Shown here in pieces: positions 36,342-48,673 of a stretch of 64,000 nucleotides of DNA (positions are counted from its first letter, which is position 1; each line of letters begins with the position of its first letter). Origin of the DNA: an uncultured bacterium (GTDB lineage: Bacteria > Hydrothermota > Tepidihabitantia > SM23-42 > JAOAFX01). The stretch covers positions 185 to 64,184 of the forward strand of contig CAZLGA010000005.1 of assembly GCA_964559225.1 (NCBI GenBank), given 5' to 3'. The notes below the pieces were generated by a model. The model was not told the origin of the DNA and ran no database searches. It saw only the letters and a program-made list of their open reading frames with translations. The position numbers and the translations under genes were made by a program.

Positions 36342-36971
36342 TTATTTAGAATACAACTCAACAATTAGATTTTCTTGTAAAGGTATCGCGATATCTTCTC
36401 TCTTTGGTAATCTGAGAATCGTTCCGGTCATATTTTCCCTGTTTAGTTTTAGCCAGCCTGTTATTTTATCCGGGTCTCTTTCTTCCAATGCCCTTTTAAC
36501 AAATGTATTGGTACGCATTTGTTCACTCAACGAAACCACCTGATTTGGTTTTACAAGATAACTTGGAATATCAACCTTTTTACCATCAATCAAAATATGA
36601 CCATGTCTAACAAGTTGTCTTGCCTGTGTTCTCGATGATGCAAAGCCAAGTTGATATATAACATTATCAAGCCTTCTTTCCAAAAGTATCAGAAGGTTTT
36701 CCCCGGTAGCACCGGGCATCCTCACTGCCTCCTGGAAAAATCTTCTGAATTGTGCCTCCAATATCCCATAAATCGACTTTACTTTTTGTTTTTCCCTTAA
36801 TTGTGTAGCATAAGATGTCAATTTCCTTCTTCCTGCCTTTCCATGCTGACCCGGTGGATACCCCCTTCGAGTAAATGCACACTTATCAGTGTAACATCTG
36901 CTTCCTCTCAAAAACAATTTCTCGCCTTCGCGGCGGCAGATCTTGCATTTCGCCCCTATATACCTTGCCAC
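36342..36971 (-). CDS. rpsD: 30S ribosomal protein S4
   Basis: MARYIGAKCKICRREG. Confidence 0.95.
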   Translation of the reverse strand: MARYIGAKCKICRREGEKLFLRGSRCYTDKCAFTRRGYPPGQHGKAGRRKLTSYATQLREKQKVKSIYGILEAQFRRFFQEAVRMPGATGENLLILLERRLDNVIYQLGFASSRTQARQLVRHGHILIDGKKVDIPSYLVKPNQVVSLSEQMRTNTFVKRALEERDPDKITGWLKLNRENMTGTILRLPKREDIAIPLQENLIVELYSK

Positions 36972-43984: not shown

Positions 43985-45610
<1,626 letters not shown>

Positions 45611-45912: not shown

Positions 45913-45984
45913 AAGCGTACCTCCTTTCTTTGCAATTATATATAATTATAAAAAATCCTCTATTATTAACTTAAAACACTAATC

Positions 45985-46058
45985 TGGGCGAAACCCGATT
46001 TGAACGGGTGACCTTCTGCTTGTAAGGCAGACGCTCTCACCATCTGAGCTATTCGCCC
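45985..46058 (-). tRNA. tRNA-Val (anticodon TAC)
   Basis: Reverse complement GGGCGAATAGCTCAGATGGTGAGAGCG-TCTGC-CTTACAA-GCAGA...GGTTCAAATCC..TTCGCCCA forms a cloverleaf with a 7-bp acceptor stem. Confidence 0.85.
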
Positions 46059-46071
46059 TTTAGACTTACTA

Positions 46072-46115
46072 TTATAATCAAAAGTTTATTTTTGTCAATG
46101 TGCCGATTTAAATCA
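46072..46115 (-). promoter_or_regulatory. minus-strand promoter TTGACA-16-TATAAT for tRNA-Val with upstream palindromic box GATTTAAATC
   Basis: -10 is the reverse complement of 46072-46077, -35 the reverse complement of 46094-46099, and the palindrome lies at 46106-46115, 6 nt upstream of the -35. Confidence 0.6.
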
Positions 46116-46407
46116 AAAATAATCTTATCCGCCACACTGTTTGGTGGATTATTTAATCAGAACACAATCGGGTGTTAAATTCGCCTTATGTTTCGGAAGC
46201 GAAGAAGCAAGAATTGCGTGAACGCAAAGTATCTCTTTCTTATCTTAAACTCTTACCCAAAATTCTCAAGTTACAAAAGAAACTTGACAGAACCTATCAA
46301 AATAAATACAATCCGAAGCTATAGTAAAGATAAGTTGAACAAATCTTTCTACTGCGATTTATTGAGATTGTTAACTTGGGCAAATTTTATTTTGATAAAA
46401 GATGTGT

Positions 46408-46436
46408 TTGACTTTTTTTAAAATTTTGAGTATAAT
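46408..46436 (+). promoter_or_regulatory. sigma70-like promoter TTGACT-17-TATAAT driving a candidate sRNA
   Basis: TTGACT 46408-46413 and TATAAT 46431-46436, with the TSS at about 46443. Confidence 0.55.
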
Positions 46437-46441
46437 ATAAT

Positions 46442-46540
46442 GGCTCTGTTAGAACCGCTGTATCCTATTAAAAAAAACCCGTACTCCCTCCTACGGGCTA
46501 AAGATACAGCCGGGAATTCTAATGGAGCCACATATTTTTA
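46442..46540 (+). ncRNA. candidate ~90-100 nt structured sRNA: long imperfect hairpin (13-bp basal stem with two G.U pairs, 8-bp stem, 6-bp apical stem, loop CUCCCUCC) followed by a U-rich tract
   Basis: Pairings 46442-46454/46518-46530, 46457-46464/46504-46511 and 46478-46483/46492-46497. The wobble pairs are only valid on the plus-strand transcript. U-run at 46535-46540. Confidence 0.45.
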
Positions 46541-46649
46541 AACACCAAATTCCCAAATCACTTTTTCACCCAACATCAAAAACCGTATCTCGTTATGCAA
46601 TTTCGGTTGACATTTAGGCATTTTGTCTTTTTTTTTTTTTACATTGTAT

Positions 46650-46677
46650 TGACAAACCTTAAATGTTGAATATAATA
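46650..46677 (+). promoter_or_regulatory. promoter TTGACA-16-TATAAT upstream of tRNA-Met, preceded by a T14 tract
   Basis: TTGACA 46650-46655 and TATAAT 46672-46677. Confidence 0.55.
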
Positions 46678-46709
46678 TTCGTGGTTAATAAAACGGTGAA
46701 ATTAAGGGG

Positions 46710-46783
46710 GCCCGTAGCTCAGGTGGTTAGAGCAGCTGACTCATAATCAGCGGGTCGTGGGTTCAAGTCCTACCGGGCCCATT
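46710..46783 (+). tRNA. tRNA-Met (anticodon CAT; elongator Met or Ile2/lysidine type)
   Basis: GGGCCCGTAGCTCAGGTGGTTAGAGCA-GCTGA-CTCATAA-TCAGC-GGGTC-GTGGGTTCAAGTCCTAC-CGGGCCCA cloverleaf. Confidence 0.85.
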
Positions 46784-46788
46784 TTTAA

Positions 46789-47190
46789 TTGATAATGAAA
46801 TGGAAAATACATCCAGCAAAAGAAAATATGACAAAGACAGTCCTGAGTGCCTTATTTATAGTTGTTTTTATCATCTTCATTGCCTTTTCCTATAATCCAT
46901 ACTGGGCATTGCTCGGTCTAATCTTTCTCGTTGCTTCGCTACATTCTTATTATTTCCCCACGACATATGAGTTCACTGAAGAAGAAATAATCATAAAGAC
47001 AATCTTCTCCACCCATAAAAGAAAACTCAAGGAATTCAAAAAGATTTATATAGGAAAAAATGGCGTCCTTTTAAGTCCTTTTAGGTATAAAACATTTTTA
47101 AATAATTTTCGTGGGGTATTCCTTTTATTGCCCAAGGAACGCGATGAAATAATAGATTTTATCAAAAACAAACTTAATGAAGAGAATTGA
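46789..47190 (+). CDS. hypothetical membrane protein (two TM helices, bPH/YdbT-like C-terminal region)
   Basis: Hydrophobic segments at residues ~17-60 and a charged C-terminal half. Confidence 0.35.
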   Translation: MIMKWKIHPAKENMTKTVLSALFIVVFIIFIAFSYNPYWALLGLIFLVASLHSYYFPTTYEFTEEEIIIKTIFSTHKRKLKEFKKIYIGKNGVLLSPFRYKTFLNNFRGVFLLLPKERDEIIDFIKNKLNEEN

Positions 47191-48673
47191 CGATATTTTG
47201 CCCCAGAAATATGCAAATGATTTCAATATTCCTGTGGAGCTTGCCTGTATAATCAGCAAAAGATTTCCTGATTATGACGAAGCAAGAAGATTTTTGTTCC
47301 CAAAAATAGAACAGTTAAACAATCCCTTAGAATTACCCGATATAGAAAAGGCAATTGAAATATTAATAGAGGGGATAAAAAATAATGAAGATATTCTTAT
47401 CTATGCCCACGATGACCCGGATGGATATACATCTGCAACAATCTTATATCAAACACTTGTAGACATAAGACGCAAAGGAAAACCTGAGATATTTATATAT
47501 CCCATCAATCGTGAAAAAGATGGGTATGTTTTAAATCCGCTTGTGCTAAAAGAATATGTTGGCAAAGGTGTGAAAATTCTTGTTAGTGTAGATTTTGGCA
47601 TAAGCAATCCCCAAAATTTTGAAATCGCCCGGGAAATGGGACTGAAATTAATAATATGTGACCACCACGAAACTGAAATGAATGAATTTCCGGTGCCTGC
47701 CGTGGACCCGAAGCGGAAAGATTCAAAATATCCATTCCGTGAACTCGCGGGTGTTGGTGTTACCCTTAAATTGTGTCAGGCGATTTATAAGACTGCATTT
47801 GGGATCAATGACAGTAATTTTTTCAAACTGAAAAAAGAATTCATTGCCATAGCAATGATTGGAACGCTTGCGGACAGGGTGCTACCTCTTGATGAGAATC
47901 GTATTCTTTGTTATGAGGGTATAAAGACATTGAGGGAAATAGAAAAACCCTGGGCACGGTATTTTTTGATTGATAATACAATTACCATCCCCCAGATTTT
48001 TAATACAATAATCCCATTATTACAATCCGCAGCACTGGAAGATTCACGCCTGGGCGTTGGTTTTTTTATTGCCCCTGACTTTTCAAAAATCGTTGAAAAA
48101 CTAAAATCAATAGAAAATGCACGAAAAGAAAACATTGAATATTTATTCCAGATTGCTTTAAATGTTGCGAAAGTTTATCCAAATGTAGTGATATCTATAA
48201 TCCCTTACGAAATTATAAATGAAACACAAAAAACAAAGATAAATAACCTTGGTGCTGTGGTTTCAAAATTGCGGGACTATTTCCATAAGACTGCAGTGGC
48301 AATGATAACAAAAGAAGAGAAATGTTATGCAGAATTAAGGTCTCACGATATCAATCTTTTTGAATTCCTTAATAAATCAAAGGAGCTCTTTATTGATTTT
48401 GGTGGCCACAAACGGGCCGCAGGCTTTTCTATGTTAGAAAAAAATCTTGATAAATTTATTGATTATGCTACAAAAATTCTGCCTGAACCCGAAATAGAAA
48501 AAAGAAAAAAGATAGAACCTGAGGCAAATATTGATAAATCAAAAATTAAACTCCTTGAACCCTTATTACCATTTGGGGAAGGGAACCCCTCCCCACTATT
48601 GACTGATGGCATTGATTTATATACAATAGATAACAGGATGAATATTATTGAGCTCGGGTTATGTCAAACTTAA
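47177..48673 (+). CDS. RecJ-like DHH/DHHA1 family phosphoesterase
   Basis: RecJ-type N-terminus (PVELACIISKRF...LNNPLELPDIEKAIEIL), DHH motifs IYAHDDPDGYTSA, VDFGIS and ICDHH, and DHHA1 GGHKRAAGF. No OB-fold tail. 498 aa. Confidence 0.7.
   Translation: MKRIDDILPQKYANDFNIPVELACIISKRFPDYDEARRFLFPKIEQLNNPLELPDIEKAIEILIEGIKNNEDILIYAHDDPDGYTSATILYQTLVDIRRKGKPEIFIYPINREKDGYVLNPLVLKEYVGKGVKILVSVDFGISNPQNFEIAREMGLKLIICDHHETEMNEFPVPAVDPKRKDSKYPFRELAGVGVTLKLCQAIYKTAFGINDSNFFKLKKEFIAIAMIGTLADRVLPLDENRILCYEGIKTLREIEKPWARYFLIDNTITIPQIFNTIIPLLQSAALEDSRLGVGFFIAPDFSKIVEKLKSIENARKENIEYLFQIALNVAKVYPNVVISIIPYEIINETQKTKINNLGAVVSKLRDYFHKTAVAMITKEEKCYAELRSHDINLFEFLNKSKELFIDFGGHKRAAGFSMLEKNLDKFIDYATKILPEPEIEKRKKIEPEANIDKSKIKLLEPLLPFGEGNPSPLLTDGIDLYTIDNRMNIIELGLCQT

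What the first reader, a model, noticed from the sequence alone, without database searches (positions are those of the whole stretch)
46408..46540. Promoter-driven ~90 nt hairpin sRNA candidate with anti-Shine-Dalgarno-like apical loop CUCCCUCC
The promoter TTGACT-17-TATAAT places the TSS at about G46443. That is the first base of a long hairpin built from 13-bp, 8-bp and 6-bp stems separated by internal loops. The 13-bp basal stem contains adjacent U.G and G.U pairs that only work in the plus-strand RNA, which argues for RNA rather than a DNA palindrome. An AUUUUUA run follows the hairpin. The 8-nt apical loop CUCCCUCC is complementary to GGAGG Shine-Dalgarno sequences. The element lies between tRNA-Val and tRNA-Met(CAT) in a gene-free island, and the 77-aa ORF nearby is not credible. 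The 5' end GGCUCUGUU resembles 4.5S/SRP RNA starts, but the GNRA tetraloop and domain IV motifs are absent.
Basis: partly seen in the sequence, partly recalled or inferred. Interest (0 to 1): 0.65.

Follow-up and report, generated by a model that had tools for sequence, protein, structure and literature searches.

The report
New conserved small RNA in WOR-3
This is a real, independently transcribed ~95-nt hairpin RNA gene, conserved with its promoter across a group of uncultured candidate division WOR-3 bacteria and absent from Rfam 15; its never-changing loop CUCCCUCC could pair with ribosome-binding sites, but that function is untested.

Summary
Window 46442-46529 (+) folds into an 88-nt hairpin of 13, 8 and 6 bp (-33.4 kcal/mol, z = -6.3). 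It lies behind TTGACT-17-TATAAT (46408-46436) and before ACAU-AUUUUU.

The window comes from a candidate division WOR-3 genome. The same RNA turns up in 18 aligned loci (17 distinct sequences) and several duplicate contigs, and the subclade copies share the consensus promoter. It always lies next to, and divergent from, tRNA-Val-groES-groEL.

The fold is supported by covariation: 99.3% of cells are paired and 9 pairs show compensatory changes, a level reached by 0 of 500 shuffles. G.U pairs fix the strand as plus.

The 8-nt loop is essentially invariant: 1 change in 104 cells among the 13 copies found without using the loop. It is unchanged in the most distant copy (L062), whose apical stem has two compensatory swaps and which carries its own terminator.

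Rfam 15 gives no hit for SRP, 6S or any other family. The overlapping 33-aa ORF is not conserved.

The most likely function is a strongly expressed trans-acting sRNA whose loop pairs with GGAGG(G)-type Shine-Dalgarno sequences, as the C-rich loops of RsaE/RoxS and RNAIII do. This is inferred, not shown. A protein-binding or housekeeping RNA is the main rival.

It is a new family of a known kind, of moderate interest.

The parts
46408..46413 (+). -35 hexamer TTGACT of the sRNA promoter
   Evidence: TTGAC(T/A) is conserved in the subclade copies read. In relatives it sits back-to-back with the -35 of the divergent tRNA-Val promoter.
46431..46436 (+). -10 hexamer TATAAT (17-nt spacer), preceded by TTTTGAG
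   Evidence: It is invariant in alignment A2. The stretch from -20 to +2 matches 25 of 28 positions of the promoter upstream of 16S rRNA in L057.
46442..46454 (+). Basal stem, 5' strand GGCUCUGUUAGAA. The predicted transcription start is at G46442 or G46443.
46457..46464 (+). Middle stem, 5' strand GCUGUAUC
   Evidence: Four of its 8 pairs show compensatory changes.
46465..46477 (+). A-rich 5' side of the large internal loop (CUAUUAAAAAAAA)
   Evidence: Its length and sequence vary, but an AAAA(U/A)A run just before the apical stem is kept, including in L062.
46478..46497 (+). Apical hairpin CCCGUA-CUCCCUCC-UACGGG. The loop occupies 46484-46491.
   Evidence: Loop: 1 change in 104 cells among 13 independently found copies. 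Stem: two compensatory pairs in L062.
46498..46502 (+). 3' side of the large internal loop (CUAAA)
   Evidence: An AAA(G) motif is conserved.
46503..46510 (+). Middle stem, 3' strand GAUACAGC
46511..46516 (+). Variable internal loop CGGGAA. This is the stretch that resembles E. coli 4.5S RNA.
   Evidence: It is the most variable segment, with 41% of cells differing. The 4.5S-like GCCGGGA is therefore not a conserved feature.
46517..46529 (+). Basal stem, 3' strand UUCUAAUGGAGCC
46530..46539 (+). 3' tail ACAU plus AUUUUU, the likely termination signal and 3' end
   Evidence: (A/C)CAU and a U-rich run are conserved in the subclade, and conservation stops right after them. In L041, L044 and L046 the next promoter starts 15-20 nt later. 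In L062 a separate terminator hairpin takes this place.
45985..46058 (-). tRNA-Val(TAC), the constant divergent neighbour of the sRNA. Its promoter is at 46071-46098 (-).
46708..46781 (+). tRNA-Met(CAT) with its own TTGACA-16-TATAAT promoter at 46649-46676. It is the downstream neighbour in most lineages but not all.
   Evidence: It is absent downstream of the sRNA in L040, L053 and L062.

Best explanation
Window 46442 to about 46539 (+) is the gene for a free-standing small RNA of about 95 nt that belongs to a previously uncatalogued family. The family is confined to a subclade of candidate division WOR-3.

The RNA is transcribed from its own consensus sigma-70 promoter, of the same type that drives the neighbouring tRNA genes and, in a sister lineage, 16S rRNA. 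Transcription ends at the U-run after the hairpin. The RNA folds into one long, irregular hairpin that presents an invariant 8-nt loop, CUCCCUCC, on a 6-bp stem flanked by A-rich unpaired strands.

Shown in silico: the structure, the strand, the conserved promoter, the boundaries of the transcription unit, and purifying selection on the loop sequence.

Inferred: the loop contains CCUCC, the same core as the anti-Shine-Dalgarno sequence at the 16S 3' end (CACCUCCUUU in L057). I propose that it base-pairs with purine-rich GGAGG(G) ribosome-binding sites of one or more mRNAs and blocks or modulates translation initiation. This is how the C-rich loops of RsaE/RoxS, RsaA and RNAIII act in Firmicutes.

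Existence as a functional RNA: about 0.9. The specific anti-SD pairing mechanism: about 0.4-0.45.
For: - Fold: -33.4 kcal/mol, z = -6.3.
- Spread: RNA and promoter are conserved in L002-L009. The RNA is also present in L039-L045, L046-L049 and L052, L053-L056 and L062, while the flanking intergenic DNA cannot be aligned.
- Covariation on 18 sequences: 99.3% of cells paired, 9 pairs with compensatory changes, 0 of 500 shuffles as high; slid controls give 31-42% paired.
- Strand: the G.U-compatible substitutions work only on the plus strand.
- Loop: 1 of 104 cells changed in 13 copies found without using the loop sequence, against 14-41% in the internal loops.
- L062 keeps the loop while two apical-stem pairs are swapped, and it has a canonical terminator hairpin plus U5 on the same strand.
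- The organism uses canonical AGGAGG Shine-Dalgarno sequences, and a related WOR-3 16S ends in CACCUCCUUU.
- Loop-SD duplex energies (-10.6 to -14.1 kcal/mol) are comparable to those of the 16S 3' tail (-11.2 to -13.0).
- Promoter class: it matches the L057 16S promoter at 25 of 28 positions, with 0 of 500 shuffles as good.
- C-rich loops that pair with SD sequences are an established sRNA mechanism (abstracts of PMC3961350 and PMC4409812, listed).
Against: - There are no transcript data, so the start, the end and expression itself are all predicted.
- No target was identified. Only 64 kb of this genome and short flanks of the others were available. In the window nothing beyond generic SDs matches the loop: GGAGGGAG with <=1 mismatch occurs 15 times against 29 expected. 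The nearby groES RBS shows no conserved extended complementarity.
- A 5-nt CCUCC core would pair with most SDs in the cell, so specificity is unexplained.
- The near-invariance of the apical stem and of the 5' strand within the subclade, and the location among stable-RNA genes, fit a protein-bound housekeeping RNA as well as or better than a typical fast-evolving regulatory sRNA.
- The U-run lies 4-5 nt from the stem, which is not a textbook terminator. The scan did not call one on the plus strand.
Confidence: 0.45

Rival explanations
1. The RNA is a protein-binding or housekeeping RNA. The invariant apical hairpin would be a recognition site for a protein, for example one that normally binds the pyrimidine-rich 16S 3' tail, or a global RNA-binding protein that the RNA sequesters or scaffolds. 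mRNA pairing would not be its main activity.
For: - Sequence conservation is unusually high for an sRNA. Within the subclade the apical stem is invariant, not merely complementary, and the 5' strand is nearly so.
- The gene sits among stable-RNA genes, behind a promoter of the tRNA/rRNA type.
- A-rich unpaired strands flank the hairpin.
- No specific mRNA target is apparent.
Against: - No candidate protein partner is linked to the locus. The only constant neighbours are tRNA-Val and groES-groEL.
- In L062 the apical stem sequence changes while the loop does not. This points to the single-stranded loop, rather than the helix, as the constrained read-out.
- No known protein-binding RNA family matches.
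Confidence: 0.3
2. It is a highly divergent SRP (4.5S) RNA of this lineage. The reader noticed the 4.5S-like 5' end GGCUCUGUU.
For: - It is a ~90-nt hairpin with paired 5' and 3' ends and a stable-RNA type promoter.
- It shares GGCUCUGUU and GCCGGGA with E. coli 4.5S RNA. That comparison is from my own recollection of the 4.5S sequence and was not run as a tool test.
Against: - No hit to either bacterial SRP model, even at E <= 10 with permissive filters, for the window copy or for L062.
- The loop is an invariant 8-nt CUCCCUCC, not a GNRA tetraloop.
- The internal loops are A-rich and variable rather than the conserved domain IV loops.
- The GCCGGGA stretch lies in the most variable segment of the family.
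Confidence: 0.03
3. It is not an RNA gene of the plus strand. It would instead be a DNA palindrome, or a minus-strand intrinsic terminator formed by the inner hairpin plus U8 on the minus strand.
For: - The terminator scan calls the inner hairpin plus T-run on the minus strand in the window and in L062.
- There is a weak minus-strand match to RF02278, at 23.4 bits against a gathering score of 50.
- The minus strand also folds well, z = -3.7.
Against: - The basal and middle stems carry G.U pairs, and their substitutions would be A.C mismatches on the minus strand or in a DNA cruciform.
- The minus-strand U-tract is not conserved. The equivalent stretch reads UAUUCC in L009 and CGUUUA in L040.
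- No minus-strand gene runs into it. The next minus-strand feature is the tRNA-Val promoter.
- The covariance model scores 110 bits on the plus strand and 22 on the minus strand.
- A plus-strand promoter is conserved, and L062 has a plus-sense terminator.
Confidence: 0.02
4. It encodes a small protein: ATG46440 opens a 33-codon ORF that spans the hairpin.
For: The ORF MALLEPLYPIKKNPYSLLRAKDTAGNSNGATYF* exists in the window.
Against: - In relatives the start codon is replaced by ATC, CTG or ATT contexts.
- The frame is broken by indels in the internal loop, and stops appear.
- The ATG begins only 3 nt after the -10 hexamer, and there is no Shine-Dalgarno sequence.
Confidence: 0.01
5. It is a decaying remnant of an rRNA operon (leader plus 16S ends). 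The idea arises because in a sister lineage the same slot next to tRNA-Val holds the 16S rRNA gene behind a near-identical promoter.
For: - In L057, 16S rRNA (Rfam 1446 bits) sits divergent from tRNA-Val.
- The promoters match at 25 of 28 positions.
- The loop shares CCUCC with the 16S 3' end.
Against: - The RNA body has no significant similarity to the L057 leader, 16S or trailer: local score 20 against 18.6 +/- 2.2 for shuffles, and 88 of 300 shuffles score as high.
- The RNA is under strong purifying selection with compensatory changes, so it is not decaying.
- The TTTTGAnTATAAT promoter signature is also in the tRNA-Val promoter, and a TTGAnTATAAT form is in the tRNA-Met promoter. The promoter similarity may therefore reflect a promoter class rather than orthology.
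Confidence: 0.03

Closest known systems
C-rich-loop trans-acting sRNAs of Firmicutes (RsaE/RoxS, RsaA, RNAIII hairpins)
   Same: - Small, independently transcribed RNAs.
- Unpaired C-rich motifs in hairpin loops are complementary to GGAGG/GGGG Shine-Dalgarno sequences.
- The pairing motif is the best-conserved element.
- Their known mechanism is occlusion of the ribosome-binding site (abstracts of PMC3961350 and PMC4409812, listed).
   Different: - No sequence or covariance-model similarity to any Rfam family, these included.
- A different phylum (WOR-3).
- A single loop motif, CUCCCUCC, rather than several UCCC/CCCC motifs.
- One 88-nt irregular hairpin that also serves as the terminator stem.
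- Located among tRNA genes behind a stable-RNA type promoter.
- Targets and pairing are untested.
Bacterial SRP (4.5S) RNA, Rfam RF00169
   Same: - About 90-110 nt, a single long hairpin with internal loops.
- Paired 5' and 3' ends, and a stable-RNA type gene context.
- A 5' GGCUCUGUU like E. coli 4.5S (from my recollection of that sequence).
   Different: - No GNRA tetraloop and no conserved domain IV loops.
- No covariance-model hit at E <= 10.
- The other 4.5S-like stretch lies in the family's most variable segment.
3' tail of 16S rRNA (anti-Shine-Dalgarno sequence)
   Same: - Contains the CCUCC core. A related WOR-3 16S ends in GGAUCACCUCCUUUC.
- Predicted duplex energies with this genome's SDs are similar.
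   Different: - The motif is presented in a closed 8-nt hairpin loop of a free small RNA, not at a single-stranded 3' end inside the ribosome.
- The flanking sequence differs (CUCCCUCC against CACCUCCUU).
- No overall similarity to 16S.

Membership tests
Bacterial SRP RNA (RF00169 / RF01854) | Scores at or above the Rfam gathering threshold with the SRP covariance models | tested here: not met
   No SRP hit at gathering thresholds. No SRP hit at E <= 10 with permissive filters on 46060-46710 or on the L062 homolog.
Bacterial SRP RNA (RF00169 / RF01854) | GNRA tetraloop capping helix 8 | tested here: not met
   The apical loop is 8 nt, CUCCCUCC, invariant in 17 of 18 sequences and CCCCCUCC in the other.
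Bacterial SRP RNA (RF00169 / RF01854) | Conserved symmetric and asymmetric internal loops of domain IV (the Ffh M-domain site) | tested here: not met
   There is no internal loop between the apical loop and a 6-bp perfect stem. The next internal loop is A-rich, 10-21 nt on the 5' side, and variable.
6S RNA (RF00013 and related) | About 180 nt with a large central bubble that mimics an open promoter, and a covariance-model hit | tested here: not met
   The RNA is 88-100 nt, has no central bubble and gives no 6S hit.
Trans-acting sRNA with a C-rich, anti-SD-like loop (functional class; e.g. RsaE/RoxS) | An independent transcription unit with its own promoter and terminator and no conserved ORF | tested here: met
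   The TTGAC(T/A)-17-TATAAT promoter is conserved. A U-run follows the hairpin and conservation ends there. L062 has a canonical terminator. The ORF is not conserved. All of this is sequence-based; no transcript data were available.
Trans-acting sRNA with a C-rich, anti-SD-like loop (functional class; e.g. RsaE/RoxS) | An unpaired, conserved C-rich motif complementary to the host's Shine-Dalgarno sequences | tested here: met
   The loop CUCCCUCC is invariant across covarying stems. The host uses AGGAGG SDs. Predicted duplexes are -10.6 to -14.1 kcal/mol.
Trans-acting sRNA with a C-rich, anti-SD-like loop (functional class; e.g. RsaE/RoxS) | Demonstrated base-pairing with target mRNAs and an effect on their translation or stability | not testable with these tools
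   Only 64 kb of the genome was available. No target stands out in the window. This needs whole-genome target prediction and experiments.
RsaE/RoxS family itself (sequence homology) | Homology to the Rfam model | tested here: not met
   The family is not among the matches at E <= 10.
Intrinsic terminator or toxic sRNA on the minus strand (RF02278) | Covariance-model score at or above gathering, a conserved U-tract after the hairpin on that strand, and an upstream gene to terminate | tested here: not met
   The score is 23.4 bits against a gathering score of 50. The U-tract is not conserved. G.U pairs fit only the plus strand. No convergent minus-strand gene is present.

The most novel reading that the evidence does not exclude
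The RNA is a lineage-specific housekeeping RNA rather than an ordinary stress sRNA. It would be an abundant, rRNA-promoter-type transcript acting as a free 'anti-Shine-Dalgarno in trans'. It would compete with 30S subunits for SD sequences genome-wide, or titrate a factor that recognises the 16S 3' tail, and so set global translation-initiation capacity in these thermophilic WOR-3 bacteria.
Probability: 0.1. Interest if true: 0.8.

Novelty: new member of a known kind. Interest (0 to 1): 0.45.

Why it matters
No regulatory RNA has been described for candidate division WOR-3, an uncultured phylum-level lineage; a full-text search found no paper combining 'WOR-3' with 'noncoding RNA'. This is a well-supported new RNA family with a conserved promoter, covariation, a defined strand and defined ends.

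Its single invariant element is an anti-SD-like loop. That gives a concrete, testable hypothesis for post-transcriptional control in this lineage, and a covariance model that can be used to annotate these MAGs.

If the RNA proves to be abundant and to act globally on SD sequences, it would be a new way of tuning translation. If it is an ordinary sRNA with a few targets, it extends the C-rich-loop strategy known from Firmicutes to a distant phylum.

Tried and rejected
- Rfam at gathering thresholds on the whole window, and at E <= 10 on the intergenic region and on the L062 homolog: only spurious sub-threshold hits (RF02278 on the minus strand, miRNA models, NmsRb, ROSE_3).
- SRP and 6S: rejected (see the membership tests).
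- Coding: the 33-aa ORF is not conserved. The 77-aa and 50-aa ORFs upstream have no Pfam hit and lie in a window-only insertion.
- Minus-strand terminator or DNA palindrome: rejected on G.U evidence and the non-conserved U-tract.
- Derivation from a 16S gene or rRNA leader: no similarity beyond the promoter.
- Replication origin: the GC-skew sign change at ~46 kb follows gene orientation throughout the window, and there is no DnaA-box cluster.
- Mobile or viral origin: no match to two family patterns in 2.9 million viral contigs.
- Local targets: no enrichment of GGAGGGAG-like sites, and the groES RBS shows no conserved extended complementarity. The best in-window SD matches are generic GGAGGG SDs, for an AsmA-family gene at 2076 and ribosomal protein S4 at 36971.
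- More distant homologs: covariance models R1 and R2 found nothing near RecJ-like/tRNA-Met in lineages with <=55% RecJ-like identity. They also found nothing near groES/tRNA-Val in L057, L059, L063 and L064.
- Exact-protein look-up of the 133-aa ORF: not on record.

Full report
**1. The observation**

- Promoter: TTGACT (46408-46413), a 17-nt spacer and TATAAT (46431-46436) form an 11-of-12 promoter match.
The hairpin closes with GAGCC at 46529.
- Fold: RNAfold gives a basal stem of 13 bp, a middle stem of 8 bp and an apical stem of 6 bp. The apical stem carries the 8-nt loop CUCCCUCC (46484-46491). MFE is -33.4 kcal/mol, z = -6.3, and no shuffle of 200 folds as well. The same fold is kept at 70-80 C.
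- 3' end: ACAU followed by AUUUUU (46530-46539).
- Neighbours: tRNA-Val(TAC) at 45985-46058 (-) and tRNA-Met(CAT) at 46708-46781 (+) flank the region. Each has a perfect TTGACA-16-TATAAT promoter.

Promoter-like matches are common in this AT-rich stretch (10 found, 5.6 expected). The promoter is therefore convincing only because it is conserved (section 3).

**2. Source organism and context**

- The RecJ-like DHH protein at 47177-48673 and GroEL at 43985-45607 have their closest relatives in candidate division WOR-3 MAGs.
- The window is ordinary chromosome. It holds ValRS, NAD-dependent ligase, a ribosomal-protein cluster, groESL, riboflavin genes and DnaK.
- Genes use canonical AGGAGG Shine-Dalgarno sequences.

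**3. Conservation**

I fetched loci by four routes. Three used a neighbouring protein and so were blind to the RNA sequence.

| Route | Loci with the RNA | Blind to the RNA? |
|---|---|---|
| RecJ-like protein alignment, one genome per species | L002-L009 (RecJ-like 64-82% identical) | yes |
| Further RecJ-like homologs | L046-L049, L052 | yes |
| GroEL homologs | L053-L056, L062 | yes |
| Metagenome scan for the apical hairpin pattern | 7 contigs, L039-L045 | no, biased for the apical part |

- In L002-L009 the promoter plus RNA is 82-91% identical to the window over ~140-180 nt, while the rest of the intergenic DNA does not align.
- The aligned set has 18 loci and 17 distinct sequences.
- In every case the RNA is divergent from tRNA-Val-groES-groEL. 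In the subclade the two -35 hexamers sit back-to-back (TTTGTCAATGTTTGAC).
- Linkage to tRNA-Met/RecJ-like is secondary. It is lost in L040, L053 and L062.
- The family covers lineages with GroEL >=88% identical to the window, plus one at 87% (L062).
- It was not found beside tRNA-Val/groES in other 86-87% lineages (L057, L059, L063, L064). It was also not found beside tRNA-Met/RecJ-like in lineages with <=55% RecJ-like identity.
- No copy occurs in viral contigs.

**4. Structure and strand**

- RNAalifold recovers the 12 + 8 + 6 bp hairpin.
- On 18 sequences (17 distinct), 99.3% of cells are standard pairs and 9 of 26 pairs have changes on both sides. No shuffle of 500 reaches any of the five measures. 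Sliding the 3' partners by 1-3 columns drops pairing to 31-42%. This alignment was fitted to the model, which favours the structure. The MAFFT/RNAalifold analysis was independent and agrees.
- L062 is the most informative sequence. Its apical stem is CCCACA/UGUGGG instead of CCCGUA/UACGGG, which is two compensatory pairs. Three middle-stem pairs and one basal pair are also swapped. The loop is still CUCCCUCC.
- The strand is plus. The substitutions U.G to U-A, G.U to A-U or G-C, U-A to U.G and G-C to G.U are all tolerated. Their complements would be A.C mismatches.
- Model R1 scores 110 bits on the plus strand and 22 on the minus strand.
- L062 has a strong terminator hairpin plus UUUUU directly downstream on the same strand.

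**5. Ends of the unit**

- Conservation begins at the -35 hexamer and stops after the U-run.
- The spacer to the next gene is 63-419 nt and cannot be aligned. In L041, L044 and L046 the next promoter's -35 begins 15-20 nt after (A/C)CAU.
- The hairpin plus U-run is therefore the whole gene, about 95-98 nt.
- The U-run lies 4-5 nt from the stem and was not called as a terminator. Termination there is inferred.

**6. What is constrained**

Among the 13 copies found without using the apical sequence, the share of cells that differ from the column majority is as follows.

| Segment | Cells differing |
|---|---|
| Loop | 1.0% (1 of 104; L006 has CCCCCUCC) |
| Apical stem | 2.6% |
| Basal stem | 4.5% (5' strand), 7.1% (3' strand) |
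| Middle stem | 8.7% (5' strand), 6.7% (3' strand) |
| Internal loops | 10-41% |
| 3' tail | 24% |

- The A-run before the apical stem, AAAA(U/A)A, and AAA(G) after it are also kept.
- The stretch CGGGAA (46511-46516) is the most variable segment. Together with the GC that precedes it (46509-46510), it makes up the GCCGGGA that resembles E. coli 4.5S RNA.

**7. What it is not**

- No known Rfam family: only tRNAs pass at gathering thresholds, and there is no SRP, 6S or other credible match at E <= 10.
- Not SRP RNA: no GNRA tetraloop and no domain IV loops.
- Not coding: the 33-codon ORF from ATG46440 loses its start codon, shifts frame and acquires stops in relatives.
- Not a minus-strand terminator or a DNA palindrome (section 4). 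The minus-strand U-tract is also not conserved.
- Not a relic of a 16S gene: the RNA body has no similarity to the L057 leader, 16S or trailer (score 20 against 18.6 +/- 2.2 for shuffles).
- Not an origin of replication: the GC skew tracks gene orientation along the whole window, and DnaA boxes do not cluster here.

**8. Promoter class**

- In L057, a sister lineage, the slot divergent from tRNA-Val holds TTGACA-17-TATAAT followed after ~125 nt by the 16S rRNA gene.
- From -20 to +2 that promoter matches the sRNA promoter at 25 of 28 positions, and 0 of 500 shuffles score as well.
- The same TTTTGAnTATAAT signature occurs in the tRNA-Val promoter, and a TTGAnTATAAT form occurs in the tRNA-Met promoter.
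- I read this as membership in the stable-RNA promoter class of these organisms. That implies strong expression, which is an inference. It is not proof of orthology with an rRNA promoter.

**9. Mechanism (inferred)**

- The only element held absolutely constant is an unpaired pyrimidine loop containing CCUCC. This is the core of the anti-SD sequence; a related WOR-3 16S ends in GGAUCACCUCCUUUC.
- Predicted loop-SD duplexes are -10.6 kcal/mol with AAAGGAGGUA and -13.6 to -14.1 with GGAGGG-type SDs. These are comparable to those of the 16S tail.
- The best-supported model is therefore a trans-acting RNA that pairs through its loop with purine-rich ribosome-binding sites, as the C-rich loops of RsaE/RoxS, RsaA and RNAIII do (abstracts listed).
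- Against a simple version of this model: no specific target could be identified in the 64 kb available, and a 5-nt core would match most SDs.
- The high sequence conservation and stable-RNA context fit equally well an abundant protein-bound or globally acting RNA. I give about 0.9 to 'functional structured small RNA', about 0.4-0.45 to SD pairing as its mode of action, and about 0.3 to a protein-binding or housekeeping role.

**10. Novelty and score**

- This is a new RNA family in a phylum without described sRNAs. It is absent from Rfam 15, and no paper in the searched library combines 'WOR-3' with 'noncoding RNA'.
- Its likely kind, a promoter-to-terminator sRNA with a C-rich loop, is known. 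It is not surprising to a specialist, but it is clean, well bounded and testable.
- Interest: 0.45.
- The most novel reading not excluded is a free anti-SD mimic transcribed like rRNA and acting globally on translation initiation. That would deserve about 0.8, and I give it about 0.1.

Noticed in passing
window 46102-46404: About 300 bp between the tRNA-Val promoter and the sRNA promoter exist only in this genome. In all relatives the two promoters abut. The insert is unique within the window. It holds a hairpin followed by a T-rich run (46127-46149, +), a promoter-like TTGACA-17-TACAAT (46284-46312, +), and 50- and 77-aa ORFs without Pfam hits. It could be a second, strain-specific small transcript or an insertion scar.
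   Followed up: partly
L057:116-1677 (-) and L057:1-115: In a sister WOR-3 lineage (JGI Ga0315310_10000258) the 16S rRNA gene sits divergent from tRNA-Val, where the sRNA lies in the window's clade. About 100 nt after its 3' end comes what looks like a protein-coding start, not a 23S gene. The rRNA genes therefore appear to be unlinked in that genome.
   Followed up: partly
window 46104-46127; L041:7545-7568; L046:64-96: A 24-nt A/T-rich motif, GATTTAAATCAAAAATAATCTTA, lies just upstream of the -35 hexamer of the minus-strand tRNA-Val promoter. It recurs exactly, upstream of another consensus TTGACA-17-TATAAT promoter, at an unrelated place in L041. It may be a shared UP-element-like sequence of strong promoters.
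   Followed up: partly
window 46546-46565; L005, L009/L052, L003 and L040 downstream of the sRNA: Short CA-rich repeats of the form (A)AATTCCAAA, for example AAATTCCAAATTCCAAATTCCAAAC in L005, follow the sRNA U-run in several lineages but not all. In L040 they lie ~200 nt further downstream, beyond an inserted segment. Their function is unknown.
   Followed up: no
L040:870-1045 (read on the minus strand): Directly after the sRNA, two copies of a GTATAGGAA(T)T...-type inverted repeat flank a GC-rich perfect hairpin (CCCCTCACCCCTGCCCTCTCCCCG...CGGGGAGAGG...GGTGAGGGGCGGGG). This resembles a small inserted element.
   Followed up: no
window 1-64000 (sign change near 46000): GC skew changes sign at the sRNA intergenic region, and the cumulative minimum is there. 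The skew follows gene orientation everywhere in the window, however, and no DnaA-box cluster is present. It is not evidence for an origin.
   Followed up: yes
window 45913-46098 (-): tRNA-Val lies only 72 nt upstream of groES on the same strand, behind a perfect promoter. This arrangement is conserved across WOR-3 lineages, including those without the sRNA. tRNA-Val and groESL may be co-transcribed.
   Followed up: no
L046-L049 (contig ends): Four independent assemblies carrying the same RecJ-like protein (P0015) all break 60-130 nt upstream of the sRNA, within or just before the tRNA-Val region. This suggests a repeat or coverage problem at this stable-RNA cluster.
   Followed up: no
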